Virus record (IMG/VR): IMGVR_UViG_3300007616_000002
Location: 1-64,000 of that record
Reading direction: 5' to 3' (one strand)
Source of the DNA: a virus
Length of the DNA stretch: 64,000 nucleotides
The notes under the pieces were generated by a model. That model was given only the letters and a program-made list of their open reading frames with translations. It was not told the origin of the DNA and did no database searches. Below, in pieces: positions 5,135 to 51,912 of the stretch. Each line of letters starts with the position of its first letter. The stretch's first letter is position 1. The position numbers were made by a program, and so were the translations under genes.

Positions 5135-5422
5135 ATGAAATTATCAGAGTCATATGTTCAAATCGAATCGAGCGAAGAACGAAAAATCCGTCAGGCTGTC
5201 GCTGAGCGGGTTTATGAGATTGAAGATGACGTAGAGGTCACTGTACGTGATGAAGACATTGAGGGCCTCGTAGAAGAGCTAATCGGGCTCATTGAACAGC
5301 GTATCGAGATAGAAGTCGAGGATTCGGATTATGCGACAGGCGAGCACTTCCGAAAGCACATTAAACACATTGAGTCCTTCACTCTCATCGCATTGGTCGA
5401 GTACTCTGACCGAAACATTTAA
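5135..5422 (+). CDS. hypothetical protein
   Basis: Acidic ORF in operon. Confidence 0.55.
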   Translation: MKLSESYVQIESSEERKIRQAVAERVYEIEDDVEVTVRDEDIEGLVEELIGLIEQRIEIEVEDSDYATGEHFRKHIKHIESFTLIALVEYSDRNI

Positions 5423-5443
5423 GTACCCCCGGTCCTAATAGTA

Positions 5444-5534
5444 GCATACACGCTGAGACAAGGCGACGGGTTACTTCGAGATTACAAATCTCATCAAGCA
5501 CTTCCCGACGCCGACTATCGCTCAGGGTGTTTGC
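5444..5534 (+). ncRNA. minimal Y-RNA-like ncRNA (bulged-helix module)
   Basis: Own TATA promoter at 5418; stems ACACGCTGAG/CTCAGGGTGT and GGCGACGGG/CCCGACGCC with internal loop ACAA/GACTATCG; TTACTTCG then hairpin GAGA-TTACAAA-TCTC. Confidence 0.7.
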
Positions 5535-5564: not shown

Positions 5565-5746
5565 CGGGCGAGCGAGTCGGATACTTCGAATCCATTGATT
5601 GATAGCTCAGCACTGGATTAAGACCGGACAACCGGACCGCGTTGGACGGCGGAAGATACGTCCTGCGCCCAGCCTAAATACTGGGAACAGAGGCCCTGTC
5701 GGGGCGACTCGGAACAACAATCCGACCCGACACTCCTCCCGACTCC
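5565..5746 (+). ncRNA. structured ncRNA, possibly a divergent member of the same family
   Basis: GTCGGA-TACTTCG ... TCCGAC stem, D-arm-like TAGCTCAG, several hairpins, no credible ORF. Confidence 0.45.
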
Positions 5747-5899
5747 ACATTTTACCGAGCACTTTTCCGAGTGTGGGAATGGGGTTAACTTGGCACTTTT
5801 TTGAGACCGTAAAGTTTATTAGCCACCCGGCTAAAATATAACGCGTATGGGAAACAGACCCAGTATAGAGACGGTTGACACCGGGGTGAAATCACGGTG

Positions 5900-8147: not shown

Positions 8148-8461
8148 AATTTGTGGTAACTGCGGAAAGAATCTCAAAATACCGCATGGGCGAGGAGATA
8201 TAACGAAGGTTTCTGTTTCCTTTGGTGGTTCTTTCTGCTCTCGTGAATGTGCAGTTGAATCGTGGGAAGAGCACGACTTACTTGGATGACAATGTCACTC
8301 GGACTAGCTGAGTATTATCGTGGTTTTCGTGCGGAGGGCAACGGGCGTATTCGTTCGGTTATTGACGTGCTGTTTTTCTTACTGAGTGTTTTGGCGGTGC
8401 ATGTGGTGAAGGTATTCCCTCTTCCATAATCTTTATATTCCACCCGGAGTAAGTGGTGAGT

Positions 8462-9946
8462 ATGAAAGTAAAAGGAGACTACAATACTGCTGACGTAAAG
8501 ACAGAATCTGGCGAGGATGAAGCAATCGACCAGATTCAGTCGATGGTGGATGCTGAGGCCTTTGAGGGCGACGAAGACGTAGCAATTATGCCCGACTTCC
8601 ATTTCGGTTCAGGCGCTGTTATCGGCTTCACAATGCCGTTCAAAGACCGTGTTGCCCCGGCAACAGTTGGCGTTGACATTGGGTGCGGAATGACCGCCAT
8701 TCGTCTGAACGGGAATCCCGAACTCGAAGACTGGGACCTTCGTGAAGAAGTAGACGAGGCTGTTCGTGAGCGCGTCCCCGTCGGGTTCGACGTTCACAAC
8801 CGTAGCGACTATCACATGGTGGACGACTTCCCGTGGGAAGTCTGTGCGACGAAGCTGTCGGAGTTCGAGAAGACAACCGGCTTTGACCTCGGGGGAGACA
8901 AGCCGCCTACGTTCGATGGAACTGATATTCCCCTCTACGGCAAAGAGTATTTCATCGACCTACTGAAGCGTGTCGAGTATGACTCCACACGAGCCATTAA
9001 CTCGGTCGGCACACTCGGTGGTGGGAATCACTTTATCGAGATTGGCGAAGACCCTGACGCTGTTGAAAACCCCTACTGGGCAGTCATCCACTCTGGGTCC
9101 CGAGGTCTCGGGGCGTCTATCGCCCAGTACTGGATTGACCGTGCAGGCAAGATTCGAAACGCTACCGATGTGCGTAAGCACTTCCGCTTACTCCCCAAGG
9201 AGTACCGCAAGTACCTCAAGTTCGACGTTGATGGTGTGTCAGACGAAGACTTACTTGACTGGGTGCAGGGTGGCATGGGTGAGGATTACGTGGCCTACGA
9301 ACTACTCAAAGATGAGTATAAGGAAACTGACCCCGAGCGCATCGGTGAAATCTCTACCGCACTGAAGGACGCTCTCAACGTCATCAAGACGGGTGAAGAC
9401 CCCACGGCCTACCTCGAAGAAGAAGAGGCCCACGGATACATCGTGGACATGGTGTTCGCCCAGACCTACGCACAGGAGTCGCGCAAGCAGATGGCCAAGG
9501 CTGTCGAAGATGCATGGAAAGAGCTTGGCCTCACCGCCAAAGACATGGCGTCTCGGGACTTTATCGAGTCAGTCCACAACTACATCGACTTCCGCGACGC
9601 CACCATCAGAAAGGGTGCTTGTCGGGCCCACGAAGACGAGCGTGTTATCATCCCCTTCAACATGAAATATGGCACTCTCATCTGCAAGGGCAAGGGCGAC
9701 GAAGACTGGAACAACTCAGCACCCCACGGCGCTGGTCGTGCCATGTCGCGTACCGGAGCTAAACAGAAGTTCGAGCAGGACAACTTCGAAAACGAGATGG
9801 CAGACGCAGGAGTCTATCTCTCGAAACACCCGCTTGACGAAGCTCCCGGGGCGTACAAGGACCCTGAAACAATCGAAGATGCCATCGGCCCCACTGTCGA
9901 GGTGAAACGGCGTGTAAAGCCGCTCATTTCCATCAAGGCGGAGTGA
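8462..9946 (+). CDS. rtcB: RtcB RNA ligase
   Basis: MPDFHFG, GVDIGCG, GTLGGGNHFIE, HSGSRG, HNY, SAPHGAGR, DEAPGAYK. Confidence 0.97.
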   Translation: MKVKGDYNTADVKTESGEDEAIDQIQSMVDAEAFEGDEDVAIMPDFHFGSGAVIGFTMPFKDRVAPATVGVDIGCGMTAIRLNGNPELEDWDLREEVDEAVRERVPVGFDVHNRSDYHMVDDFPWEVCATKLSEFEKTTGFDLGGDKPPTFDGTDIPLYGKEYFIDLLKRVEYDSTRAINSVGTLGGGNHFIEIGEDPDAVENPYWAVIHSGSRGLGASIAQYWIDRAGKIRNATDVRKHFRLLPKEYRKYLKFDVDGVSDEDLLDWVQGGMGEDYVAYELLKDEYKETDPERIGEISTALKDALNVIKTGEDPTAYLEEEEAHGYIVDMVFAQTYAQESRKQMAKAVEDAWKELGLTAKDMASRDFIESVHNYIDFRDATIRKGACRAHEDERVIIPFNMKYGTLICKGKGDEDWNNSAPHGAGRAMSRTGAKQKFEQDNFENEMADAGVYLSKHPLDEAPGAYKDPETIEDAIGPTVEVKRRVKPLISIKAE

Positions 9947-10512: not shown

Positions 10513-11580
10513 ATGGACGAACGTACCGCTGACAACGTTATTAGAATCGCTCAACTGTTTATTTCTGCACTCGACGGTAATGAGTACCACAACTGGGACC
10601 ATCATCGCTCTGTTGTAGAGGAAGCTGTTACTATCGCACGAAAAGAAGGCCTCTCAAACGAGGATGAGCTACTTCTACGAGTTGCCACGTGGTTCCACGA
10701 CATTGGGTACGTCAACGGCGCTGATGACCATGAGAAGCTGAGTACTGACATTGCCAACGCTGTGCTCAAGAACAACGGTGTCAAGAAAAACTCTGAGGAT
10801 AGTCGTATCATCCGGGAAGCTATTCGGGGTACTGAGATTCCGAAGCGAGAAGAGCCGGAAAACAAAGTCGCCGCTATTCTCTCTGACGCAGACCTCGCTA
10901 ATCTCGGGAAAGATTATATCACGACGACAAAGCAACGAATGTCGGTCTATGAGGAGGCAGACACGGACCTGACCGAAGCAGAGTGGAACGAGGAAATGAG
11001 CCTCCCGCTTCTTGAACATGTCGCTGAAATCGGCTACTACACCGAAACAGCACAGGAGTTGTACGGCGACCAGCTTCGACAGAATCTCGAATACCTTCGT
11101 GAAGAGGTAGAAAACGGAACCCCTGACGTTATTGTTGCAGGAACTTTTGACGTGTTCCATATCGGACATGAAAAGATGTTCGACACCGCGTTCGCTCACG
11201 GGAATCCGATTATTGGTCTCACGAGTGATGAGATGGCGTCCAAGTCACGTGAACGTGAGGTCCGTGATTACAGTAGCCGTCTATCTGGAGTCGAGATGCA
11301 GGCTTCGGAAAGAGCTAGCATGTTCCATCGTGAGTACGAGGTACAACAAATCAATTCGACGTATGCTGACGCCATGACTATTGACGCGGACAAGATTATC
11401 GTCTCTCCCGAAGAAAAGACAATCGAGCGGGCTGAAGATATTAACGATGTTCGGGAAGAGAACGGGTTAAACACACTCGATATTATCGTTGCCGAGGAAG
11501 TGCGTGCTGATGATGGCGGTCGTATCTCTTCGACGCGCATTCGGAACAACGAAATCAACTACAAAGGGAATATTCTGTAG
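10513..11580 (+). CDS. HD phosphohydrolase fused to a cytidylyltransferase-family (archaeal PPAT/CoaD-like) domain
   Basis: YHNWDH...FHDIG...DADL; AGTFDVFHIGH, GLTSD, VSPE, ISSTRIR. Confidence 0.85.
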   Translation: MDERTADNVIRIAQLFISALDGNEYHNWDHHRSVVEEAVTIARKEGLSNEDELLLRVATWFHDIGYVNGADDHEKLSTDIANAVLKNNGVKKNSEDSRIIREAIRGTEIPKREEPENKVAAILSDADLANLGKDYITTTKQRMSVYEEADTDLTEAEWNEEMSLPLLEHVAEIGYYTETAQELYGDQLRQNLEYLREEVENGTPDVIVAGTFDVFHIGHEKMFDTAFAHGNPIIGLTSDEMASKSREREVRDYSSRLSGVEMQASERASMFHREYEVQQINSTYADAMTIDADKIIVSPEEKTIERAEDINDVREENGLNTLDIIVAEEVRADDGGRISSTRIRNNEINYKGNIL

Positions 11581-11625
11581 TCACCAAAAAGTTTAAGTAC
11601 CCCCGCCCCCAAGTGAGCATGTAGT

Positions 11626-11746
11626 AACGCACGAGGGAAACGGATACTTCGACTATAGAGTCACCGCGGGTTCAAATCCCGCTCCGAGATAGCCTCTCGG
11701 GGGTGTTTGGCTAACCATATACCCCCGTTTCCCGACTCTTGGCGTT
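11626..11746 (+). ncRNA. YrlA-like Y RNA (circularly permuted tRNA mimic)
   Basis: Promoter at 11592; end stem AACGC-ACGA-GGGAAACGG / CCGTTTCCC-GACTCTTG-GCGTT; ATACTTCG; T-arm GCGGG-TTCAAAT-CCCGC precedes loop-closed acceptor-like stem TCCGAGA/TCTCGGG and a D-like hairpin. Confidence 0.75.
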
Positions 11747-11801
11747 CAGGGTGGCACCCCATAAAAAGCCCGGGAGGATGGCTCCTCTCGTCAGAAAGCT
11801 T

Positions 11802-11929
11802 GGACCCATAGCTCAGTCTGGTAGAGCGCGTATTTATACTCTGTCCTGCTATTGGCACCCCGGTGCACTATGGAGGGAGTTACTCCGATGCTAACGGCGA
11901 GGTCGATGGTTCGAGTCCATCTGGGTCCA
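11802..11929 (+). ncRNA. tRNA-like RNA (GCT anticodon) with 54-nt structured insert in the anticodon stem
   Basis: Acceptor GGACCCA/TGGGTCC, D and T arms intact; anticodon stem CG^CCG/CGGCG interrupted at 11831-11884. Confidence 0.8.
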
Positions 11930-11933
11930 CTTC

Positions 11934-12058
11934 GGGGCCGTGGTGTAGTGGCCTATCATCGACTTATCCCGCACTCGGCTATTGCCGTCTTACGGACAAC
12001 GAGCGCGGTTACTTCGTATCTGGAACGACGGACCCTCGTTCAAATCGAGGCGGCCCCA
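11934..12058 (+). ncRNA. tRNA-like RNA (CTG anticodon, Gln-like) with 52-nt structured insert in the anticodon stem
   Basis: Acceptor GGGGCCG/CGGCCCC, T arm CCTCG-TTCAAAT-CGAGG; stem CG^TCGT/ACGACG interrupted at 11962-12013. Confidence 0.8.
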
Positions 12059-12148
12059 CTAATTTTAGAGGGCATCTCCGGTAGCGATTAGTACCTTGCC
12101 AACACCACTCCCACAAACTTTAATATCCCCCCGACACTTGTGTTGGAT

Positions 12149-14943: not shown

Positions 14944-15843
14944 ATGGAAACGTATCCCAAGTTACGCTATCCCGGGGAAGAGGCCACACAAGGCCTGTTC
15001 GCCAGTGGTTCTATTGTTATACAGGAGAAGTTAGATGGTTCGAACTTTCGGTTTACGTGGGAACCCGATACTGGATTCACGTTCGGGTCTCGGCGGACTG
15101 AAGGAGAGGGTCTTCACCGTGACCAGTTTGCCGACGCTATCGAGTACGTCGAAGAGAACGTCAGTGAAGTCGAGCTACGGAGCCAGCACAACGAGTTCGG
15201 TAAGCTAGTCTACTTCGGTGAGTTCATGAACCCGCATACCATCTCGTATGACTGGGAGGGAACGCCCGACTTCATCGGCTTCGACGTATGGTCTGAGGAC
15301 GCGCAGAACTTCCTCACAACGGGTCTTGTCCAATCCCTGTTCGATGGCCTCGACCTTCCCACTGCGCCGATTGTGACGACTGTGAGCGCCGATGAGTGGG
15401 ACGACTACGACTTTGAGTGCCCCGAGTCCGAATACTACGACGGAAAGGCTGAGGGTGTGGTGTTCAAGAATCATACGACCGACACTTACGGAAAGTATGT
15501 TCGAGAAGACTTCAAGGAGAAGAGCAAGCAGACCTTCGGACCCAGCAAAAAGTCCTCACTCAACGATACGGAGCGAATGGTCTACGCCTACATCACCGAG
15601 GCCCGTATTAGGAAAGCAATATATAGGCTTCAAGATGAAGAAGGTAAAAAGATTAGAATGGAGATGATGGCTGAAGGACTTCCGCAAGAAGTTATTTCGG
15701 ATTTTGTAGATGAGGAAGGGTTTAACGTGTTTATGAATGAGAATTGGAAAATAGGAATTGGAGAATTCCGGTCAATAGTATCTAGTAGATGTGCTGAAGT
15801 TCTTCGTCGTGAAGTAGATAAAAAAGTGAAGGAGGAGCTATAA
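14944..15843 (+). CDS. ATP-dependent RNA ligase (Rnl2-like)
   Basis: QEKLDGSNFR, FGSRR, FGEF, FIGFDV, EGVVFK, KYVREDFKE nucleotidyltransferase motifs. Confidence 0.85.
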   Translation: METYPKLRYPGEEATQGLFASGSIVIQEKLDGSNFRFTWEPDTGFTFGSRRTEGEGLHRDQFADAIEYVEENVSEVELRSQHNEFGKLVYFGEFMNPHTISYDWEGTPDFIGFDVWSEDAQNFLTTGLVQSLFDGLDLPTAPIVTTVSADEWDDYDFECPESEYYDGKAEGVVFKNHTTDTYGKYVREDFKEKSKQTFGPSKKSSLNDTERMVYAYITEARIRKAIYRLQDEEGKKIRMEMMAEGLPQEVISDFVDEEGFNVFMNENWKIGIGEFRSIVSSRCAEVLRREVDKKVKEEL

Positions 15844-19103: not shown

Positions 19104-19592
19104 ATGAAGTTCAATCAGACCAAGAAGTCTATTGCTGAGAGAACTCGGACGACCAATCACGAGGGTGGGGAGGCGTTCGAACCCGAAGATGTTCGACTTG
19201 GGCTTTATAAAGTCGTTATCAACAATCTTCTTGAAGACTCGTTCTACGAGTCCGACGAGGAGAGCTTTGACAAGGTGAAGTCACGTTTTGAGGAGTGTGT
19301 CATCGAGCACCCCGAGTTCGTGCTGAAGCTCGCCTACTGGGCCCGTGAAGAGGCGTACCTTCGGCAGATTCCCCAGCTACTGCTCGTGTTTGCGGCTAAC
19401 AACGAGCACACGAAGGGGTACGTCCGTGAGTACTCTACTGGAGTCATGCAACGGGCTGACGAGCCGCTGGAGGTGCTTGCAATGCAGGTGGAACTCTTTG
19501 GGACGAGTATTCCGAACCCTCTCCAGAAGGGTATCGAGGACGCACTGCACACGTTCGATGAGTACGAAGTGTCAAAATGGGATACAGCATGA
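19104..19592 (+). CDS. TROVE/Ro60 N-terminal half
   Basis: TTNHEGGEAF, DSFYES, PEFVLKLAYWAR...LR, QRADE, IPNPLQKGI...FDEYEVSKW. Confidence 0.9.
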   Translation: MKFNQTKKSIAERTRTTNHEGGEAFEPEDVRLGLYKVVINNLLEDSFYESDEESFDKVKSRFEECVIEHPEFVLKLAYWAREEAYLRQIPQLLLVFAANNEHTKGYVREYSTGVMQRADEPLEVLAMQVELFGTSIPNPLQKGIEDALHTFDEYEVSKWDTA

Positions 19593-20374
19593 GCTGGAAT
19601 AAAGTTTCCAAGTCAGAGTGTACCGGTGCTCTGGTTCAGGCGAAGCAGGAGTTGGGTGAGTCGCCCAGCGTGTCCCAGTACCGTGAGTTGGACCTACAAC
19701 CAACAGTCTACACCATGCAAAATAAATTCGGTTCGTGGAACAAGGCGAAAAGGGCCGCTGGCCTGCAAGCTTGCACCAACCGTGTTGTGAGTGATGACGA
19801 GATAAGCATTGCCATCAACCTGTACGCAGGTGGACTGTCAGTCCGGGAGGTTGCTGATGAGTTAGAAGTCCAACCACAGACAATCCATTACCACCTTCAG
19901 AATGAGGGGGTTACCGAGTCCATCTCTGAGGCTCTAAAAGGACGTGACCATAGCTGGGGAGACAAGATTTCGCAATCTCTGGAAGGTCATGAGGTTAGCG
20001 AATCAACTCGTGAGAAGATTTCAGAGACCCATACCGGGAAAGAGCCTTGGAACAAGGGAAAAACGAAGAAATCCCACCCAGACGAAATCGACTACGGGCG
20101 CTCAGGTGAAGCGCACCATGCTTGGAAGGGTGGTATTAGTAGTGAGTTGAACCGACTGCGACAAACACCTGAGTACAAGGAATGGCGTAAGTCAGTGTTC
20201 GAGCGTGACAACTGGACATGCCAAGATTGCGGTCAGAGAGGCGGTGAATTGAACGCGCATCATATCAAATCATTTGCGGAGAACGAAGACCTTCGGTTTG
20301 ACGTAGATAACGGAGAGACACTATGCAAGGAACATCATATCGAGCGACACATGACGGAGGAGAGAAATGAGTAA
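19589..20374 (+). CDS. HNH homing endonuclease (HEG repeat + HTH + NUMOD3-like) splitting TROVE
   Basis: KFGSWNKAK, HTH, REKISETHTGK, WRKSVFERDNWTCQDCG..LNAHHI...NGETLCKEHH. Confidence 0.9.
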   Translation: MSWNKVSKSECTGALVQAKQELGESPSVSQYRELDLQPTVYTMQNKFGSWNKAKRAAGLQACTNRVVSDDEISIAINLYAGGLSVREVADELEVQPQTIHYHLQNEGVTESISEALKGRDHSWGDKISQSLEGHEVSESTREKISETHTGKEPWNKGKTKKSHPDEIDYGRSGEAHHAWKGGISSELNRLRQTPEYKEWRKSVFERDNWTCQDCGQRGGELNAHHIKSFAENEDLRFDVDNGETLCKEHHIERHMTEERNE

Positions 20375-21374
20375 CAAGAGCCGTGAGTTCAGCTACCGAG
20401 ACCTGATGAATCTCGTCCATCCCAAGCCCCGAGACGACCTTCGGAAAGAGCTATTCAAGCGGATTGCACTCGGTGAACTGGACGACCACCCCGAGGTCGA
20501 GCCGCTGAAACAGCACCGGACGTGGGAGGATACCATGTCGAACGACGATGACGACCGCTCGGAGGCAGAAAAGTTCCACGACCGGCTAGACGATATGGGC
20601 CTCTTCGCCAAGATTCGGAACGTCCGGAACATGCTTGAGGCTGGGCTGGAGCCCGAGGTAATCCTCACAGACGAGGACCTCGATTCTGTTCCCCACGTCA
20701 AGCTGTTCCCGTTCCGCTTCTACCAAGCGTACAAGGCTGTAAAAGACGCTGGGTACCGCTCGACGTATCTCGATGTGTGGTTCGAGAACGCCATCGACCG
20801 GTCTGTCGAAAACGTTCCCGAGGAGTTCGGAGACACCTATGTAGCGGCTGACACCTCCGGGTCGATGACGTGGACGCCCATCTCCGATAACTCGGACCTT
20901 ACCCCGATGGAGATAGGGGCGCTCTTCGGCGCTGTGTGCGGTTCGAAGGGCGCAAAGGTGTCTGCCTTCGCAAGTACCCACGAAGACGTTCAGTTCCACG
21001 CTGGCGAGCCTGTGCTCTCGATTCAGGACCGCATCAAGGAGGCCCCCGCAGGCGGCGGGACACACGGGTACAAAGTTCTCAAGACACTCCGTCAACGAGG
21101 AGAGAGTTGGGAGAACGTCGCACTCTTCACGGACACCCAACTTTGGGGCGGCTCGCTGAAGGAGGAGTGGGACAAGTACATGCAGGAGGTCAATCCCAAC
21201 GCGAGCCTCTACATCGTAGACCTCGCAAGTTACGGCGACCTCGTGGTTCCCGAGGGGTACGATTCGGTCTATCGAGTGTCGGGTTGGAATGAGAACATCG
21301 TAAAGCACATCCGGTACGCATCGGAAACGGATGCCGCGATTCAGGAAGTCGAATCTGTCGGCTCTCCTGAGTAG
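20367..21374 (+). CDS. TROVE/Ro60 C-terminal half with vWA domain
   Basis: RDLMNLVHPKP, TWE, IRNVRNM, FPFRFYQAY, MIDAS DTSGSM, GGGT, FTDTQ, VSGWNE. Confidence 0.9.
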   Translation: MSNKSREFSYRDLMNLVHPKPRDDLRKELFKRIALGELDDHPEVEPLKQHRTWEDTMSNDDDDRSEAEKFHDRLDDMGLFAKIRNVRNMLEAGLEPEVILTDEDLDSVPHVKLFPFRFYQAYKAVKDAGYRSTYLDVWFENAIDRSVENVPEEFGDTYVAADTSGSMTWTPISDNSDLTPMEIGALFGAVCGSKGAKVSAFASTHEDVQFHAGEPVLSIQDRIKEAPAGGGTHGYKVLKTLRQRGESWENVALFTDTQLWGGSLKEEWDKYMQEVNPNASLYIVDLASYGDLVVPEGYDSVYRVSGWNENIVKHIRYASETDAAIQEVESVGSPE

Positions 21375-38249: not shown

Positions 38250-38367
38250 GCCGTCGTTGAGCAATGGTAGCTCGCCGGTCTTGAAAAAACGATGGAATTA
38301 ATTCCATCGTAGCAAGATAACCGGCGTCTGAAATATTGGCATAGGGGTTCGAATCCCCTCGACGGCG
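38250..38367 (+). tRNA. tRNA-Ser(TGA) with canonical 33-nt intron (38286-38318)
   Basis: Central helix CTTG/CAAG with AAA and ATA bulges at 37/38; long variable arm; G73. Confidence 0.9.
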
Positions 38368-43907: not shown

Positions 43908-45197
43908 GTGAGTGAAAACTCAGTCTATCTGGCTGGCCCCATCCAACACGCCGACAATCATGGGACGAACTGGCGCGAGGAGATTCAAGAAGTTTATCCT
44001 GACCGATTCGATTGGCTTGACCCGCTGTCGAAGTATGACCCCACCGACCCGAAGGTGGACTTTTACTTCGATGAGGATGACCGAGACGACCTCTATGAAC
44101 TGAAGACCCAGACGGCCGATGATGGCTCAAACAAGTATGTCACACCCACGGACATTGTGGAAGGTGACAAGCTCGTCATCGATGAGGCTGATGCCATTCT
44201 TGTTGGTTGGTCGGTAGAGCAAGATTCAAGAGTAACTGATTCAAAGACTTCTGACATGAAAGTATGTCCTGAATGTGGCGAAGAAAAGAAGCTCTTAGCC
44301 AAACATATTCAAATGAGTGGGTGTTCATGGCCCAAAATTCCTGAACCCGATGTTGAGGCTATTGCGGGGATGGTTCTTGGCGATGGCTCAATTAATAACC
44401 GGGATGGTCTCCCCCGACTTGACATTAGTATGATTTCGGGGAAGTTTTTGGAGCATCTGTATGACCGTTTTGGGGTTTTATCTGCTGGATTGAAGGTTAA
44501 GAAAACGGCCTCGGCTCAAGCAGTATCGCATCGTGAAAGTGGTTTCAATCCGGGCGCAGAGGCGTCGGAATATTCTGACGTGTATCGCTATTGGACAATT
44601 GGGCATCCAGTTTTTGAAGAATTTGCGTCTTGGTATGGACCCAATGGAAAGGAGATTCCAGACGTTTTCAAATTGACACCTGAATCGGCCCGATATTGGT
44701 ATGTATCGGATGGTGGATTAAATTGGAACAAGAAGGCATCTCGGGCGTATGTTCAGATTAGTAGTGTTGTCGGTGCTTCAGACGAACGACTTGAAGAGTT
44801 ATTTGATGAGGTGGGATTCTCTCCCAATGTTGGGAATGGGGCTGTTCAGTTCTCCGTCGAGGAGTCAGAGAAGTTCCTTGATTGGATTGGTGACCCGTTA
44901 CCCAACTTCGAGTATAAATGGGAGTATAAATCGTTCAAGCAGTATGAGCGTGCAAAACCTTTGACCAAAGTTAGCTCAGCGGGGACCCCGATGGAGGTCA
45001 TGTATCAGTACATGTTGAACGAACTTCACCCGCATCGAGAGCACGTCCCCATCGTGGTGTGGTGGATTGATGGTGAATACTCCAACAGCCACCTCTCACC
45101 GTGGATGGAGTATCACGCTGACCGCATAGAGTTCGACCGAGAGGATGCACTCAACACGCTAGAGTTCACACTCGAATCTGACGTGATTGTCGAGTAG
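43908..45197 (+). CDS. nucleoside 2-deoxyribosyltransferase-like protein with an in-frame LAGLIDADG insertion
   Basis: VYLAGPI..WR..DPL..IVEGDKLVIDEADAILV [CPEC, GMVLGDG, WYVSDGG] SSAGTPMEV. Confidence 0.8.
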   Translation: MSENSVYLAGPIQHADNHGTNWREEIQEVYPDRFDWLDPLSKYDPTDPKVDFYFDEDDRDDLYELKTQTADDGSNKYVTPTDIVEGDKLVIDEADAILVGWSVEQDSRVTDSKTSDMKVCPECGEEKKLLAKHIQMSGCSWPKIPEPDVEAIAGMVLGDGSINNRDGLPRLDISMISGKFLEHLYDRFGVLSAGLKVKKTASAQAVSHRESGFNPGAEASEYSDVYRYWTIGHPVFEEFASWYGPNGKEIPDVFKLTPESARYWYVSDGGLNWNKKASRAYVQISSVVGASDERLEELFDEVGFSPNVGNGAVQFSVEESEKFLDWIGDPLPNFEYKWEYKSFKQYERAKPLTKVSSAGTPMEVMYQYMLNELHPHREHVPIVVWWIDGEYSNSHLSPWMEYHADRIEFDREDALNTLEFTLESDVIVE

Positions 45198-47082: not shown

Positions 47083-47086
47083 TGAT

Positions 47087-47170
47087 GCCACCGTTGGACA
47101 GTTTGGCCGTCCGTCCGCTTGCTGAGCGGGTATCCTCACGGGTTCCCCGGTTCAAATCCGGGCGGTGGCG
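47087..47170 (+). tRNA. tRNA-Ser(GCT)
   Basis: Loop TTGCTGA, long variable arm, G73. Confidence 0.9.
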
Positions 47171-47462
47171 TAATCAAAAGACTTAAGTGCTACCCGACTC
47201 TCCGTTCACGTATGCAAAAGTTTGTTGTAAAAGTTCGAGAACGTGAGACTGAGATGGTGCGTGCCATGCGAGCTAGTTCGGTTGATGAAGCAAAGCGAGC
47301 CTTCACTGAGGGTGGTATATTCAGCCATCTCGAACTGCTTAGTATCTATGACTTCGGTGATTATGTTGAGAACTTCGAGCAGAAAGTGGAGTACGCCAAT
47401 GGAATGGTCCGATTTGGCGAGCGAGCGTTTCAGGATAAGCGTAACGTTGGTGAGTTCAATTA

Positions 47463-47849: not shown

Positions 47850-47895
47850 GTGAGGCGTAACATTTAAGACCCATCCGACCATCTTTTTGGTCACG

Positions 47896-50800
47896 ATGGG
47901 TATTCGAAACTTCGCCAACTTAGCTACTGAAAAAGAGCCGTTAAAGCTCACTACTGCGGAATATACTGTCGAAGACAGTGGGAGCGTTCGTGATGAGCCG
48001 ATTGTTCACCTCATCTGCCGACGCCCGAACGGGAAGCGTCGTCATATCGAGGTAGAGGGGTTTTACCCTTCGTTCTACATCACCGGAGAAGAGTTCCTTG
48101 AGAACAAGACTGAACTCATCAACGAAGGACGTATTCGGTGGATGGAAGTTCCTGAGTCGATGGTCAACAAAGAGGACGACAGGGAACTCTTTTTCCAAGA
48201 TTCCGTTCGGATGATGGACGACGGGAATGAAGTGCAAACGCTTCACGACGAGAAGCTGGTAAAGATTGTCTGCGGCATCCCCAAGCATACCTCTAACCGA
48301 AAGAACGGTGGACTGTCGGACTACTTCGACCAGACGTGGGAATCTGACGTGTTCTTCACCCAGCGTTTTCTTATCGACACCGGAGTCAAGACGGGATTCC
48401 GCGCCCCCGTTGGTGAGGACCGAGTTCACTTCTCCGAGCTTGAGCCGCTCAGCCCGGAAGAGACACCCAACGTCGAGTCACGAACAATATATCTTGACAT
48501 TGAGGTGTATAGCGATGGGGAGTTTCCGGACCCGACGGAAGCTGAACAACCCGTCACGTCTATCTCTGCTTACGACAGCTACGATGACGAGTACAAGGCG
48601 TGGATTCTGCATACTGAAGAGTGGGCAAACACAGTGCCGGGCGGCTACGGAGGCAGTGAAGAAGACTTCGAAAAGATGGAGGACCACTTCGAAGAGCAGT
48701 ACGACGAGCGGTGGCCGGGGACGGAGGTGCGTGTGTTTGCCGATGAATCATACCTGTTAGACGACTTTCACGAGTATGTCATAGACCGCCGTCCCGACAT
48801 TATGACGGGCTGGAACGCGCACAAGAACGATATTGGGAACGGGTTCGATTTCCCCTACCTCATCAACCGTAGCAAGGCTGTGAACGCGTGGAACGTGAAC
48901 GACTGGTCTCCCCTTCACAACGGCAATGTCTTCGTCACACGGGCTGGGAGCGCCGTCGTAGAGGGGATAGAACTCTTCGACATGCTCCGGGCCTACGAGA
49001 AGACACAAATCCACGAGCTTGACCAGAAATCACTCGACTACGTTGCCAACAAAGAACTCGGGATGGGGAAAGAGGATATAGACGACCTCAACGACGCATG
49101 GGCGTGGGAGCCCACCAAATTCCTGATGTACAACATTAGGGACACCGAGGCAGTCGTTGAGATTGAAGAATCGCAGTCGGTCATCTCGATGTACGACCAC
49201 CTTCGTGACGTGACCGGGCAGTTGTACTCCGAGTGTCACCACAACATCTCGATGATTGACATGTTGTTCCTGCGTGACGCCTTCGAGAAGAACATCGCTC
49301 TGCCGACCTCAGAGAAGCCCAACGTGCGTCATTATCACGGAGCAAAAGTGTTCACGCCCAGCCCCGGTCGCTCCGAGAACGTCTTCTACCCCGACTTGGC
49401 GAGCCTGTACCCCAACCTCTTCTGGGCGACAAACATGTCCCCCGAGACTGTCATCGGCAACTACGAGGACTTACAGGCGTCCGACTACGCCGAGGAGGAC
49501 TGTTTCGTCGTCTACTGGGACCCCAGAGACGAGGAAATGAAGAAGGACGACGACACGCCTGACTATGTTGCTGACCAGCACGACGAGGCGCTCTACGTCA
49601 TCAAGCCCGACATTAAGAAAGGGTTCGTGCGCGACAGCATCGGCAGTCTTATTGATATGAAGTATTTATATAAAGGCACTGACAAATATGGTGCTGTTAA
49701 GCGCGTGACTAACTCTTGCTTCACCCCCGATACTGAAGTCATGACCCCTGACGGTGTTCGGAATATTCGTGACCTTGACGTTGGTGATAAGGTGTACTCA
49801 CTAAATCCCGACACCCATCAGATGGAGGTCAAACAAGTTACTGAACTCATCGAAAAGCCCGATTACGACGACGAGTTAGTCACCATTCAGAATAACACTA
49901 TCGACCTGAAGGTAACTCCTGACCACCGCCTCTATACCAAGCGACAGCGCCACAGCGACGAGTTTGAGGCAGTCGATGCTGGAGGCCTCAACAGTTGGAC
50001 GAGCTATGAGATGGCTACTGACTGGTCTGTGCGGGAGAGTGGTGGTGTTGGTCGGATTGACCTTGCTGAGTACGTTAACTCGGACTTCGAAGTGACCGAG
50101 ACGGATGGTGTTGAGTACATTCGCAACGCAGAGACGATTAATGGTCGCCCCGGATGGGTCAAGCGGTATTACTCCGAGGAAGAGATGGCCAAGTTGGTTG
50201 GCTGGTTCGCAACTGAAGGACATTCGGTCGTTAGCTCAAGTTCGAGAGTCGCTATCAGCCAAAAAACCCCTGAACATTTCGAAGAGGTGGAGGAGTGCCT
50301 CTCGTCTACGGGACGATACGTCTCTAAAGACGCGAATGGGTTCAATGTGCACAATCGCCTTCTCGCTGAAGCCACAAGGAACATGTGCGGCGAATCCTCG
50401 TCAGAGAAGAAGCTCCCCGAGTGGGTGTTTGAGACAAAAGCATCGACGCGGAAAGAGCTTCGTAGCGTCCTCATGAAAGGAGACGGAGACTCGGACGCTA
50501 ACCGATTCAGCACCCAGTCCAAGAAGCTCCGTGACCAGTTCCTCCAACTCTGTTGGGAACTGGGTGACCCCGCGCAGTACAATCGTGATAGCGACGTATG
50601 GTGCGTTTACTTTGGCGAAAAGAGCCAGTCGTTCCGCATGAATCGGTCGGGTAACCGTGAGGGAGACGGTAACACCGAACAGGCCGAAAACGGCGTCTAT
50701 TGTGTGCAAGTCGAGGATAACCATATGCTCGTGGCAGGTCGGAACGGGAAATTTGTCAACATTTTTAATTGTTACGGCGTAATGGGCGACTCAGACACAT

Positions 50801-51912
50801 ACGGGAAAGGTTTCCGACTCTTCGACGTTCGTATTGCAGAAGCTATCACGCTCGCTGGCAGAAAGGTGCTGGAGTTCACCGCGAAGCAGATTCGCAACTG
50901 GCTCCAGAATAACGGCTTCCCCGAGGCCGAGATTGTCGGCGGCGACACGGACTCTGCGATGTGTTCTGTCCCCGGCTACGACATAGACCCCGAAGATATT
51001 TGGGCCGACTTCGTGCGTCACCAGAACGGAGAGCCTGTGCAGACACCCATCTTCAAGTCCGCAAAGTATGCCAACGACTCCTACGACGAGTTCATGGCAG
51101 AGACGTTTAACATCGAGAAGTCTGAGGGCTACGAGCACAAGATGGAAGTCGAAGTCGAGTGTGTGGCCGACGCGCTCTTCTTCAAGAGCGATTACGACGC
51201 CGACAACCCTGAAGAAGTCGGCAAGAAGAAAAGATACTCGCAAACTGTTGTCGTAGATGAGGATGATGGAATTATCGAGAACCCCGAGGCAGAGCACACT
51301 GGGTGGGACCTCGTTCGTTCTGATGCCTCTGGTGTCACCAAATGGGCCCAAGGACAGGTTCTCACTCTCATCCTGAAATCGGATACACCGAAGGATGACA
51401 CGCTAGACTTCCTTGAAGAATCTGTCAATTATCTTAAGAACGGTGACCTCGACGGACTTTCCGAAATGGCAGGCAGAGAGTTCACGATGGAGGATGTGGG
51501 CATACCGAAGTCTATCTCGTCGGCCCCGCCCGAAGAGTATGGTGTCGATGATGAGACGGGAGAAAACACACGTACTCCGCACCCCCACATCCGTGGAGCG
51601 AAGTACGCAACCCAGAACATCCCTGACGAGAGCATCGAGCAGGGGGCGAAGCCGTACCTCTACCATGTCGAACGGATGGGTGGTGACTATCCCCAGACCT
51701 ACACTGCCGACACACTCGAAGACGGGAACATCGTGGACGCCATCGCGGTCGAGAACCCGAGCAACATACCGAACGAGGCTCGTATGGACTGGGACGTGAT
51801 GGTCGAGAAACTGCTCAAAAATCCGATAAACGAGATTATCATGACGATGGGGTGGACTTGGGAAGACGTAACAAACGAAGGACGGCAAGCAGGACTGGAC
51901 GCATGGGCATAG
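47896..51912 (+). CDS. polB: family B DNA polymerase with intein
   Basis: Exo DIE, GWN..FDFPYL, YNIRD; DLASLYPN, KRVTNS/CYG, GDTDS, KKRY. Confidence 0.96.
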   Translation: MGIRNFANLATEKEPLKLTTAEYTVEDSGSVRDEPIVHLICRRPNGKRRHIEVEGFYPSFYITGEEFLENKTELINEGRIRWMEVPESMVNKEDDRELFFQDSVRMMDDGNEVQTLHDEKLVKIVCGIPKHTSNRKNGGLSDYFDQTWESDVFFTQRFLIDTGVKTGFRAPVGEDRVHFSELEPLSPEETPNVESRTIYLDIEVYSDGEFPDPTEAEQPVTSISAYDSYDDEYKAWILHTEEWANTVPGGYGGSEEDFEKMEDHFEEQYDERWPGTEVRVFADESYLLDDFHEYVIDRRPDIMTGWNAHKNDIGNGFDFPYLINRSKAVNAWNVNDWSPLHNGNVFVTRAGSAVVEGIELFDMLRAYEKTQIHELDQKSLDYVANKELGMGKEDIDDLNDAWAWEPTKFLMYNIRDTEAVVEIEESQSVISMYDHLRDVTGQLYSECHHNISMIDMLFLRDAFEKNIALPTSEKPNVRHYHGAKVFTPSPGRSENVFYPDLASLYPNLFWATNMSPETVIGNYEDLQASDYAEEDCFVVYWDPRDEEMKKDDDTPDYVADQHDEALYVIKPDIKKGFVRDSIGSLIDMKYLYKGTDKYGAVKRVTNSCFTPDTEVMTPDGVRNIRDLDVGDKVYSLNPDTHQMEVKQVTELIEKPDYDDELVTIQNNTIDLKVTPDHRLYTKRQRHSDEFEAVDAGGLNSWTSYEMATDWSVRESGGVGRIDLAEYVNSDFEVTETDGVEYIRNAETINGRPGWVKRYYSEEEMAKLVGWFATEGHSVVSSSSRVAISQKTPEHFEEVEECLSSTGRYVSKDANGFNVHNRLLAEATRNMCGESSSEKKLPEWVFETKASTRKELRSVLMKGDGDSDANRFSTQSKKLRDQFLQLCWELGDPAQYNRDSDVWCVYFGEKSQSFRMNRSGNREGDGNTEQAENGVYCVQVEDNHMLVAGRNGKFVNIFNCYGVMGDSDTYGKGFRLFDVRIAEAITLAGRKVLEFTAKQIRNWLQNNGFPEAEIVGGDTDSAMCSVPGYDIDPEDIWADFVRHQNGEPVQTPIFKSAKYANDSYDEFMAETFNIEKSEGYEHKMEVEVECVADALFFKSDYDADNPEEVGKKKRYSQTVVVDEDDGIIENPEAEHTGWDLVRSDASGVTKWAQGQVLTLILKSDTPKDDTLDFLEESVNYLKNGDLDGLSEMAGREFTMEDVGIPKSISSAPPEEYGVDDETGENTRTPHPHIRGAKYATQNIPDESIEQGAKPYLYHVERMGGDYPQTYTADTLEDGNIVDAIAVENPSNIPNEARMDWDVMVEKLLKNPINEIIMTMGWTWEDVTNEGRQAGLDAWA
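49717..50769 (+). mobile_element. intein (351 aa) with LAGLIDADG endonuclease in PolB motif KxxxNSxYG
   Basis: CFTPDT start, VTPDH block B, GWFATEG and MKGDG, VYCVQVEDNH, ends IFN|C. Confidence 0.93.

What the first reader, a model, noticed from the sequence alone, without database searches (positions are those of the whole stretch)
11802..12058. Two tandem tRNAs with a Y-RNA-like module grafted into the anticodon stem
Seen: both genes have normal acceptor, D and T arms. Both are interrupted right after the first CG of the anticodon stem, by 54 nt (11831-11884) and 52 nt (11962-12013). The inserts share a grammar: TTAT-[ACTCTGTCC | CCGCACTCG]-GCTATTG-[hairpin]-AC(T/A)A-[GGAGGGAGT | CGAGCGCGG]-(T)TACT. 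Removing them restores perfect stems (CGCCG/CGGCG, loop ATGCTAA; CGTCGT/ACGACG, loop ATCTGGA). I found no bulge-helix-bulge at the junctions of the first gene, so these do not look like standard archaeal introns. Inference: they are 'un-permuted' Y RNAs with free, potentially chargeable acceptor ends and an internal Ro-binding arm. They could be a tRNA-to-YrlA evolutionary intermediate, a nuclease decoy, or substrates of a new Ro/RtcB-guided splicing route.
Basis: partly seen in the sequence, partly recalled or inferred. Interest (0 to 1): 0.93.

Follow-up and report, generated by a model that had tools for sequence, protein, structure and literature searches.

The report
tRNA-shaped Y RNAs of a halovirus
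Two neighbouring tRNA-like genes of a salt-loving archaeal virus each carry, inside the anticodon stem, the folded "handle" found on the partner RNAs (Y RNAs) of the RNA-surveillance protein Ro60. They are probably a new, tRNA-ordered form of Y RNA rather than tRNAs with ordinary introns.

Summary
Window 11802-11929 and 11934-12058 are two tandem tRNA-shaped genes with 54-nt and 52-nt inserts after nt 28 and nt 27. Neither insert junction has a bulge-helix-bulge, whereas a third tRNA in the window has a textbook one.

The contig is a relative of halovirus HGTV-1 and carries RtcB, Ro60/TROVE and other RNA-repair genes. The same insert architecture occurs at the syntenic spot in HGTV-1 (annotated there as "tRNA Asp + intron"). 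It also occurs in two Ro60-bearing metagenome contigs and in at least seven tRNA-like genes directly upstream of Ro60 in phages that appear to infect bacteria, where archaeal splicing does not exist.

The insert's stem co-varies: 80% of cells pair, against 36-51% when partners are slid. Its internal loop and the UACUYCG that follows are also found in circularly permuted YrlA-type Y RNAs beside Ro60, in this window and elsewhere. The anticodon-like loops are atypical (A32), are not conserved between orthologues, and do not match the tRNA bodies.

Best reading (about 0.6): stable, acceptor-open (non-permuted) YrlA-like Y RNAs. Main rival (about 0.2): unusual introns that are spliced out. No RNA data were available, and Ro60 binding is inferred, not shown. 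This scan has already noted similar handle-tagged tRNA look-alikes in bacterial phages.

The parts
11802..11929 (+). tRNA-shaped gene 1 (t1): 7-bp acceptor stem, D arm, T arm, discriminator A; no encoded CCA
   Evidence: Rfam tRNA 46.1 bits; structural filter
11831..11884 (+). t1 insert (54 nt) after nt 28. Layout: linker 11831-11837; P2 5' strand 11838-11846; internal loop 11847-11854; P1 hairpin 11855-11866; ACUAU 11867-11871; P2 3' strand 11872-11880; UACU 11881-11884
   Evidence: Sequence; fold; duplex and covariation
11885..11899 (+). t1 distal hairpin (3 bp, loop AUGCUAA), followed by the CG that pairs with C27 G28. It is anticodon-arm-like, with A32 and a GCU triplet, on a body that lacks a long variable arm
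   Evidence: Sequence; loop statistics
11934..12058 (+). tRNA-shaped gene 2 (t2), 4 nt downstream of t1
   Evidence: Structural filter; not found by ARAGORN or Rfam
11962..12013 (+). t2 insert (52 nt) after nt 27. Layout: linker 11962-11968; P2 5' strand 11969-11977; GCUAUUG 11978-11984; P1 hairpin 11985-11995; ACAA 11996-11999; P2 3' strand 12000-12008; UUACU 12009-12013
   Evidence: Sequence; fold z = -3.1; covariation. A natural variant changes only unpaired 11967 and 11989
12014..12030 (+). t2 distal hairpin (4 bp, loop AUCUGGA) plus closing C-G. The loop is identical in the HGTV-1 homologue
11592..11599 (+). TTTAAGTA box, a likely viral promoter element that may drive the YrlA-like RNA and t1-t2 as one unit
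   Evidence: 11 copies against 1.09 expected, lying upstream of RNA and gene clusters; the same box sits before the HGTV-1 RNAs
11626..11746 (+). Circularly permuted YrlA-like RNA with the same module. Order: stem strand, AUACUUCG, hairpin, T arm, loop-closed acceptor stem, D-like arm, complementary strand
   Evidence: Sequence; motif search
12063..12066 (+). T run after t2, a possible archaeal terminator
   Evidence: Sequence; inference only
19104..21374 (+). Ro60/TROVE gene, split by an HNH endonuclease ORF (19577-20374); the presumed protein partner
   Evidence: Pfam TROVE and vWA_Ro60 on 20367-21374; the N-terminal half matches Ro60 of relatives
8453..9946 (+). RtcB RNA ligase, part of the same RNA-repair neighbourhood
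   Evidence: Pfam RtcB 1.5e-62; 57% identical to HGTV-1 RtcB

Best explanation
t1 and t2 are non-permuted (acceptor-open) members of the YrlA kind of Y RNA. Each is a full tRNA-like body whose anticodon stem is opened into a three-way junction. One branch of the junction is the Ro60-binding type of arm: a 9-bp stem with a central mismatch, an asymmetric ACNA / G(A)CUAUYG loop, and a closing hairpin.

Proposed mechanism, all steps inferred:
1. The pair is transcribed from the viral TTTAAGTA promoter.
2. RNase P and tRNase Z cut it at the tRNA-like ends, and CCA is added.
3. The insert stays in place and binds the viral Ro60.
4. The 2-bp and 3-bp helices stack, so that an anticodon-arm look-alike is displayed.
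5. The tRNA-shaped body then brings Ro60 together with tRNA-handling enzymes or nucleases, for example the neighbouring RtcB repair set or host anticodon nucleases.

What is shown: the anatomy, its conservation and covariation, the linkage to Ro60, and the lack of a splicing motif. What is inferred: processing, Ro60 binding and the effector.
For: 1. The window is an HGTV-1-like halovirus contig with RtcB, an Rnl-type ligase, Ro60, a HAD-CSD protein and RlaP.

2. HGTV-1 has the same insert-bearing tRNA at the syntenic place between RtcB and Ro60, preceded by a Y-type hairpin RNA.

3. Five haloviral homologues keep the insert after nt 27/28: t1, t2, HGTV-1, L126 and L132. Their P2 sequences are all different but all paired. 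80% of cells pair, against 36-51% for slid partners. 5 of 9 pairs show compensatory changes. The central pair is mismatched in 3 of 5.

4. The module ([helix]-ACNA-[9-nt strand]-(U/A)UACUUCG-[hairpin]) is also present in permuted RNAs at 5440-5530 and 11626-11746 of the window, in HGTV-1, and in L123, L128, L132 and L140, all beside Ro60.

5. UACU matches the conserved YUAY of YrlA. The loop matches GNCGAAN0-1G/CGAA, exactly in L132 and HGTV-1.

6. The signature TACTYCG-N16-28-GTTCRAATC pulled out 119 viral loci, of which 31 carry Ro60. A control pattern gave 0 of 117.

7. Insert-type tRNA look-alikes sit directly upstream of Ro60 in contigs L023, L027 and L037. These encode an Amidase_2 peptidoglycan hydrolase, so their hosts are probably bacteria. 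No splicing endonuclease gene is found in these records, in HGTV-1 or in the window's contig.

8. There is no BHB at the junctions, while the positive control in the same window has one.

9. The putative 3' junction lies at UACU| in t1 and t2 but at UACUUC| in HGTV-1 and L132. The conserved motif therefore straddles the junction in a variable register.

10. The loops have A32 in 4 of 5 homologues, against 1 of 41 normal viral tRNAs. The t1 orthologues carry GCU, GUA or an 8-nt loop. The exon bodies do not match the isotype of the triplet.
Against: - Removing the insert restores a perfect 5-bp stem in all five haloviral copies. In four of them it also restores a 7-nt loop with U33 and a purine at 37. 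This is what an intron would leave.
- The hosts are archaea with EndA and RtcB, and the virus adds its own RtcB.
- t1 lacks a recognisable CGA Ro60 motif.
- The genes lie 7.2 kb from Ro60 in this window.
- Rfam's YrlA model does not match.
- No RNA data exist, so retention of the insert and Ro60 binding are unproven.
- That the L023 group infects bacteria rests on an endolysin domain and Ro60 similarity, not on an isolate.
Confidence: 0.6

Rival explanations
1. They are genuine tRNA genes (GCU and CUG anticodons) with non-canonical introns at 28/29 and 27/28. Host or viral enzymes remove the introns and RtcB joins the exons. The excised, possibly circularised, intron could itself be a mini Y RNA for Ro60. 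This would be analogous to the box C/D RNA inside the haloarchaeal tRNA-Trp intron (that analogy is from my own knowledge).
For: - Perfect anticodon stems after removal in all five haloviral copies, with 7-nt loops carrying U33 and R37 in four of them.
- The host domain has the splicing machinery: EndA is found only in the archaeal control genomes.
- RtcB is encoded nearby.
- GenBank annotates the HGTV-1 copy as a tRNA with an intron.
Against: - There is no BHB or relaxed BHB at the junctions. From established knowledge, haloarchaeal EndA is the dimeric type that needs the full motif.
- The same design occurs in phages that appear to infect bacteria and have no EndA.
- The junction register varies relative to the conserved UACUYCG.
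- A GCU triplet sits on a body without the long variable arm, although a normal tRNA-Ser(GCU) exists at 47086-47171.
- One orthologue has an 8-nt loop.
- A32 is atypical.
Confidence: 0.2
2. Dual use. The full-length RNA is the Ro60-bound form, and a fraction is processed by an as yet unknown Ro60/RtcB-linked route into a working tRNA or tRNA halves.
For: - The anticodon-like arm and the Y module coexist in one RNA.
- The RNA-repair genes are clustered.
- M. smegmatis YrlA is known to be cut by RNase P and CCA-tailed while bound to Ro60 (PMC4201824).
Against: No enzyme or motif for such cleavage has been identified. No data bear on it.
Confidence: 0.12
3. They are decaying tRNA pseudogenes disrupted by insertion of a repeated Y-like element, and have no function of their own.
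For: The module is repeated at least four times in the window. The anticodon identity is odd.
Against: - The architecture is kept between viruses whose Ro60 and RtcB are only 45-57% identical.
- There are compensatory changes.
- The acceptor, D and T arms are intact.
- The only variants seen in a related population fall in unpaired positions.
Confidence: 0.05

Closest known systems
YrlA-type bacterial and phage Y RNAs bound by Ro60/Rsr (Chen et al. 2014, PMC4201824; structure preprint 10.1101/312249; Rfam RF02553)
   Same: - A tRNA-like T arm, D arm and 7-bp acceptor-type stem.
- A stem followed by the conserved YUAY (here UUACU), then a hairpin, then the T arm.
- A CGA(A)-type loop 5' of that stem.
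- A gene next to Ro60 and RtcB.
- The M. smegmatis YrlA is even opened by RNase P and CCA-tailed.
   Different: - Known YrlAs are circularly permuted. Their RNA ends lie in the Ro60-binding stem and the acceptor stem is closed by a loop.
- Here the acceptor stem is open, as in a tRNA, and the Ro60-type arm is closed by a hairpin.
- A 2-bp plus 3-bp split anticodon stem with a 7-nt loop is kept.
- The host is an archaeal virus.
- The Rfam model does not match. It also scores accepted phage YrlAs at only 29-33 bits against a cut-off of 69.
Archaeal intron-containing tRNAs, including non-canonical intron positions and the functional box C/D RNA in the Haloferax tRNA-Trp intron (own knowledge)
   Same: A structured RNA is embedded in a tRNA gene of an archaeal system, and removing it would restore a cloverleaf.
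   Different: - There is no bulge-helix-bulge.
- The position is 27/28-29, in a lineage where introns sit at 37/38.
- Homologues appear to exist in phages of bacteria.
HGTV-1 gene 136, annotated 'tRNA Asp (gtc) + Intron' (NC_021328, 70440-70571)
   Same: It is the direct homologue. It lies at the same place between RtcB and TROVE, has an insert after nt 28, has the same loop AUCUGGA as t2, and has the same ...GUUACUUCG 3' motif.
   Different: There is a single copy. The insert is 58 nt and has an extra small hairpin. The published anticodon call (GUC) comes from forcing a canonical intron. The loop restored by the insert boundaries reads CUG.
Circularly permuted and split tRNA genes (red algae, some archaea), and the dimeric-tRNA origin model for YrlA (cited in 10.1101/312249)
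   Same: The same parts appear in a permuted order. A tandem pair separated by 4 nt is the kind of precursor that the model invokes. The 5-nt loop closing the acceptor stem of the neighbouring YrlA-like RNA equals discriminator plus a 4-nt spacer in length.
   Different: Those pre-tRNAs use BHB motifs and mature into working tRNAs. No such motif is present here.

Membership tests
BHB-spliced archaeal intron-containing tRNA | Exons form a cloverleaf with acceptor, D and T arms | tested here: met
   Rfam tRNA 46.1 bits for t1; the structural filter passes both genes
BHB-spliced archaeal intron-containing tRNA | Bulge-helix-bulge (3-4-3) or a relaxed form placing both splice sites in the bulges | tested here: not met
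   Exhaustive search of t1, t2 and HGTV-1 found no motif giving a tRNA-length product. The control tRNA at 38250-38367 gives central helix 4/4 and outer helix 7 bp
BHB-spliced archaeal intron-containing tRNA | After removal: a canonical anticodon loop and a triplet consistent with the tRNA body | tested here: inconclusive
   7-nt loops with U33 and R37 are present. However, A32 occurs in 4 of 5 copies against 1 of 41 normal tRNAs; GCU sits on a class I body; orthologues carry GCU, GUA or an 8-nt loop; body identity is ambiguous
BHB-spliced archaeal intron-containing tRNA | Spliced product present in cells | not testable with these tools
   No RNA run is listed for this DNA
YrlA-type Y RNA | Gene linked to a Ro60/TROVE gene | tested here: met
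   Ro60 lies at 19104-21374, 7.2 kb downstream in the same RNA-repair cluster. Homologues lie 5 nt to 3.7 kb from Ro60 in L132, L126, HGTV-1, L023, L027 and L037. Chen et al. used a 4-kb limit, which the window copy exceeds
YrlA-type Y RNA | tRNA-like T and D arms joined by an acceptor-type stem | tested here: met
YrlA-type Y RNA | Stem followed by conserved YUAY, then a hairpin and the T arm | tested here: met
   UUACU follows P2 in t1 and t2. The same order is seen in phage YrlAs of CcrPW, BRock, Mvi-JY20 and L078. The signature is enriched beside Ro60: 31 of 119 loci against 0 of 117
YrlA-type Y RNA | GNCGAAN0-1G / CGAA motif 5' of the stem (putative Ro60 contact) | tested here: inconclusive
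   Exact in the L132 insert and in an HGTV-1 Y-type RNA. Partial in t2 (ACAA-CGAG) and in the HGTV-1 insert. Absent in t1
YrlA-type Y RNA | Permuted topology: RNA ends in the Ro60-binding stem, acceptor stem closed by a loop | tested here: not met
   The order is acceptor 5' strand, D arm, insert, hairpin, T arm, acceptor 3' strand. This is the feature that makes it a variant
YrlA-type Y RNA | Match to Rfam RF02553 at the gathering score | tested here: not met
   Only a 14.6-bit partial hit. The test is weak: accepted phage YrlAs reach 29-33 bits against a cut-off of 69, and the model assumes the permuted order
YrlA-type Y RNA | Binds Ro60 | not testable with these tools
   No RNA-protein docking tool or binding data were available

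The most novel reading that the evidence does not exclude
These may be single-chain tRNA/Y-RNA chimeras that are CCA-tailed, and perhaps charged, while held by Ro60. If so, they would be living representatives of the form from which permuted YrlA RNAs arose. A tandem pair of insert-bearing tRNAs, cut at the insert hairpins, would yield exactly the YrlA order: T arm of the first, spacer-closed acceptor stem, D arm of the second. That would root Y RNAs in tRNAs carrying an anticodon-stem arm, and it would extend Ro60/Y-RNA particles to archaeal viruses.
Probability: 0.25. Interest if true: 0.9.

Novelty: new variant of a known kind. Interest (0 to 1): 0.72.

Why it matters
Y RNAs are the obligatory partners of Ro60, a conserved RNA-surveillance protein and human autoantigen. 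Their origin from tRNA, and the role of their tRNA-like domain, are open questions.

All described YrlA RNAs are circularly permuted and lack a free acceptor end. The one partial exception is the mycobacterial YrlA, which gains such an end only after RNase P cleavage. A natural form in tRNA order, with open acceptor ends and the Ro60-type arm grafted into the anticodon stem, is present in archaeal viruses and in phages that appear to infect bacteria. This would do three things:
- give the origin models a concrete intermediate;
- allow direct tests of whether a Y RNA can be CCA-tailed, charged, or used as bait for tRNA nucleases;
- correct the tRNA counts of HGTV-1-like viruses.

HGTV-1 and its host are in culture, so the key experiments are feasible. 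The published YrlA survey discarded hits overlapping annotated tandem tRNA genes. That may be why this form was missed.

Tried and rejected
- **blastn against named phages:** the region gave no match.
- **Related-locus searches:** the search with the neighbouring primase-polymerase found nothing, and the one with RtcB found only HGTV-1.
- **Public sequencing runs:** no RNA holder is listed, so expression, splicing and RNA ends could not be examined. Four DNA runs were laid on the region. They gave only one slightly divergent variant and no insert-less allele.
- **Rfam YrlA model:** no useful hit on the window. This is uninformative, because the model scores accepted phage YrlAs far below its cut-off.
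- **Motif scans of viral contigs:** The second scan pattern was too loose and returned 117 chance loci. I used those as a negative control.
- **MAFFT alignment of eleven full-length RNAs:** not structural within the insert. I aligned the inserts alone instead. One row (HGTV-1) is off by one column, which lowers the pairing counts.
- **Isotype assignment by exon identity:** ambiguous.
- **Viral splicing endonuclease:** a search with PF01974 found none.
- **Literature:** two Y RNA reviews (PMC10870794, PMC6047535) are not held. I cannot exclude that an acceptor-open form is mentioned there.
- **Considered and rejected:** a box C/D RNA in the insert (no C/D boxes); a self-splicing intron (far too small); protein coding (no ORF of 90 aa or more on either strand across 11581-12064).
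- **Complex prediction:** not used, because it does not take RNA.

Full report
**What is there**

Window 11802-12058 holds two head-to-tail tRNA-shaped genes separated by 4 nt.
- Gene t1 (11802-11929) matches Rfam tRNA at 46.1 bits, with a 67-nt local insertion in the anticodon arm.
- Gene t2 (11934-12058) is missed by ARAGORN and Rfam. It still has a 7/7 acceptor stem, U8, a D stem, a 5-bp T stem and a UUCAAAU T loop.

Both inserts have the same layout. A 7-nt linker is followed by a 9-nt strand, a G-C-U-A-U-U-G loop and a small hairpin. Then come AC(U/A)A, the complementary 9-nt strand and (U)UACU. The 9-bp stem has one central mismatch.

No ORF of 90 aa or more crosses the region on either strand. 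A TTTAAGTA box at 11592 is one of 11 copies in the window, against 1.09 expected, and is probably a viral promoter. A T run follows t2.

**Whether it is an ordinary archaeal intron**

I searched every pair of positions for the 3-4-3 bulge-helix-bulge geometry, allowing G-U pairs, one mismatch and weak outer helices.
- A third tRNA in the window (38250-38367, a tRNA-Ser(UGA) with a 33-nt intron at 37/38) gives a clean motif: central helix 4/4 and outer helix 7 bp.
- t1, t2 and the HGTV-1 homologue give nothing that would leave a tRNA-length product.
- No splicing-endonuclease domain is encoded by the contig, by the complete HGTV-1 genome or by the other viruses discussed below. The control genomes show this domain only in archaea.

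**Genomic setting**

The window is part of a 76.7-kb viral contig, estimated about half complete. Its Ro60 and RtcB are 45-57% identical to those of halovirus HGTV-1.

Around the RNAs lie the following genes:
- RtcB (8453-9946)
- an HD plus nucleotidyltransferase protein (10513-11580)
- an Rnl-type ligase (14944-15843)
- Ro60/TROVE, split by an HNH endonuclease (19104-21374)
- a HAD-cold-shock protein
- RlaP

HGTV-1 has the same order. Between its RtcB and TROVE genes it carries a 132-nt gene annotated "tRNA Asp (gtc) + Intron". Read directly, that gene has an insert after nt 28 that ends in ...GUUACUUC. Its distal loop is AUCUGGA, identical to the loop of t2. The published anticodon call looks like an artefact of forcing a canonical intron.

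**More homologues**

A search with Ro60 in metagenome contigs, followed by an explicit structural filter, found two further haloviral copies:
- L132:1532-1658 ends 5 nt before the Ro60 start.
- L126:596-733 lies 3.7 kb before Ro60.

A loose DNA signature (TACTYCG, 16-28 nt, GTTCRAATC) was run over viral contigs and returned 119 loci. Of these, 31 carry a Ro60 homologue within the fetched flank. A control pattern of similar strength gave 0 of 117. The 3' half of t1 and t2 therefore carries a signature that marks Ro60-linked RNAs.

Three of those loci (L023, L027, L037) hold at least seven tRNA-ordered, insert-bearing genes directly upstream of Ro60, inside tRNA arrays. Two lines of evidence point to bacterial hosts. 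The contigs encode an Amidase_2 peptidoglycan hydrolase, a family found only in the bacterial control genomes. Their Ro60 is also closest to Ro60 of Caulobacter, Brevundimonas and Xanthomonas phages.

One L023 copy has the same 2-bp plus 3-bp split stem as the haloviral copies, with a 7-nt loop. Others have a closed 5-bp stem with the module in the loop.

**The insert is a conserved structure**

The five haloviral inserts have entirely different P2 sequences that all pair. On an alignment of the inserts:
- 80% of cells form standard pairs, against 36-51% when the 3' partners are slid by 1-3 columns.
- 5 of 9 pairs show changes on both sides.
- The covariation score is 0.54, against at most 0.27 for slid partners. 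8 of 500 shuffles reach it.
- One row is misaligned by a column, which works against the result.
- The central pair is unpaired in 3 of 5 sequences, so this is a kept irregularity.

The only differences seen in a related natural population, at 11967 and 11989, fall in a linker and a hairpin loop.

**The module is the Y-RNA module**

The same elements occur in RNAs whose ends lie in the outer helix, that is, in circularly permuted order. These elements are a helix, an ACNA loop, a 9-nt strand, (U/A)UACUUCG and a hairpin. Further on come the complementary strand, G(A)CUAUYG and the other side of the helix.

Such permuted RNAs are found at:
- window 5440-5530
- window 11626-11746, which has a T arm, a loop-closed 7-bp acceptor stem and a D-like arm
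- HGTV-1
- L123/L124, L128/L129, L132 and L140

All lie beside Ro60. Phage isolates with accepted YrlAs show the same strand-UUACUUC-hairpin-T arm order (CcrPW, BRock, Mvi-JY20).

This agrees with the published description of YrlA:
- a GNCGAAN0-1G motif near the 5' end;
- a conserved YUAY after the stem, followed by a variable hairpin;
- then the T arm, a closed acceptor stem and the D arm (PMC4201824);
- the stem itself takes the place of the anticodon stem (10.1101/312249);
- a CGAA-bearing internal bulge is used to identify the Y RNAs of a Thermus phage (PMC12135203).

The CGAA-type motif is exact in the L132 insert and in one HGTV-1 RNA. It is partial in t2 and absent in t1.

**The anticodon-like arm**

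After removal of the insert, all five haloviral copies have a 5-bp stem, and four have a 7-nt loop with U33 and a purine at 37. That is the best argument for an intron. Several points count against a decoding role.
- A32 occurs in 4 of 5 copies, against 1 of 41 ordinary tRNAs of this virus and HGTV-1.
- t1 has a GCU triplet on a body without the long variable arm, although a normal tRNA-Ser(GCU) exists at 47086-47171.
- The t1 orthologues carry GCU, GUA and an 8-nt loop.
- The exon bodies do not resemble the matching isotype.
- The conserved UACUYCG lies across the would-be 3' junction in two registers: UACU| in t1 and t2, and UACUUC| in HGTV-1 and L132.
- Permuted YrlAs often have a similar AU-initial 7-nt loop on the hairpin after UUACU.

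I therefore read the 2-bp and 3-bp helices as two arms of a three-way junction that stack to imitate an anticodon arm.

**Conclusion and limits**

The most likely reading (0.6) is a stable, tRNA-ordered Y RNA that binds the viral Ro60 through the inserted arm and offers a complete tRNA look-alike with open ends.

A spliced-intron reading (0.2) and a dual-use reading (0.12) are not excluded. No RNA data exist for this virus, and nothing here measures Ro60 binding.

In the papers I could search, I found no description of an acceptor-open YrlA or of Y RNAs in archaeal viruses. The original survey discarded hits overlapping annotated tandem tRNA genes. Two reviews were not available.

Earlier notes of this scan describe handle-tagged tRNA look-alikes beside Ro60-like genes in bacterial phages. 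They agree with this reading but are not independent evidence.

Noticed in passing
window 11626-11746: A circularly permuted YrlA-like RNA just upstream of t1. Order: 9-bp end stem, AUACUUCG, small hairpin, T arm, 7-bp acceptor stem closed by a 5-nt loop, D-like arm. The 5-nt loop equals discriminator plus a 4-nt spacer, the length found between t1 and t2.
   Followed up: partly
window 5440-5530 and about 5565-5755: Two further RNAs with the same module: ACAA, a 9-nt strand and UUACUUCG or AUACUUCG. The second contains a D-arm-like UAGCUCAG...GG segment. They follow a TTTAAGTA box at 5418.
   Followed up: partly
window, 11 sites (e.g. 5418, 11592, 17720, 38969, 40220, 46914): TTTAAGTA occurs 11 times against 1.09 expected. 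It sits upstream of RNA clusters and genes, and also before the HGTV-1 RNAs. It is probably the TATA-type promoter element of this virus group.
   Followed up: partly
window 38250-38367: A tRNA-Ser(UGA)-like gene with a 33-nt canonical intron and a clean bulge-helix-bulge. ARAGORN misses it and Rfam finds it. I used it as the positive control.
   Followed up: yes
window 19104-21374: The Ro60/TROVE gene is split into two ORFs by an HNH homing-endonuclease ORF (19577-20374). Relatives (L126, L132, HGTV-1) have it in one piece.
   Followed up: partly
L002:16536-16667 (HGTV-1, NC_021328 70440-70571): The gene annotated 'tRNA Asp (gtc) + Intron' is an insert-type Y/tRNA chimera with loop AUCUGGA. 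The annotated isotype is probably wrong. A Y-type hairpin RNA precedes it (L002:16460-16525), and another Y-type RNA with an exact GACGAAGG motif lies at L122:1224-1342.
   Followed up: partly
L023 (-) 10507-10379, 10266-10136, 8087-7954, 7785-7647; L027 (-) 1868-1735; L037 (-) 10893-10760, 10499-10362: Large phage contigs (up to 175 kb, estimated 42% complete), probably infecting bacteria, carry several insert-bearing tRNA look-alikes within tRNA arrays immediately upstream of Ro60.
   Followed up: partly
L123:8896-9250 (and identical L124): A normal tRNA-Met(CAU) is followed by a Y-type hairpin RNA, an acceptor-plus-T-arm minihelix, and a YrlA-like RNA whose post-UUACU hairpin has the loop AUCUAGC. 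All lie just upstream of Ro60.
   Followed up: no
L145 (-) about 3880-3800 and L078 (-) 3350-2870: YrlA arrays beside Ro60, probably bacterial-phage. One D arm plus its following bases is identical over 25 nt to the t1/L132 D arm and insert start.
   Followed up: no
window 47887-51912 and 43908-45197: The family B DNA polymerase contains a Hint/intein insertion. A nucleoside deoxyribosyltransferase-like ORF carries a LAGLIDADG endonuclease. Homing elements are frequent in this contig.
   Followed up: no
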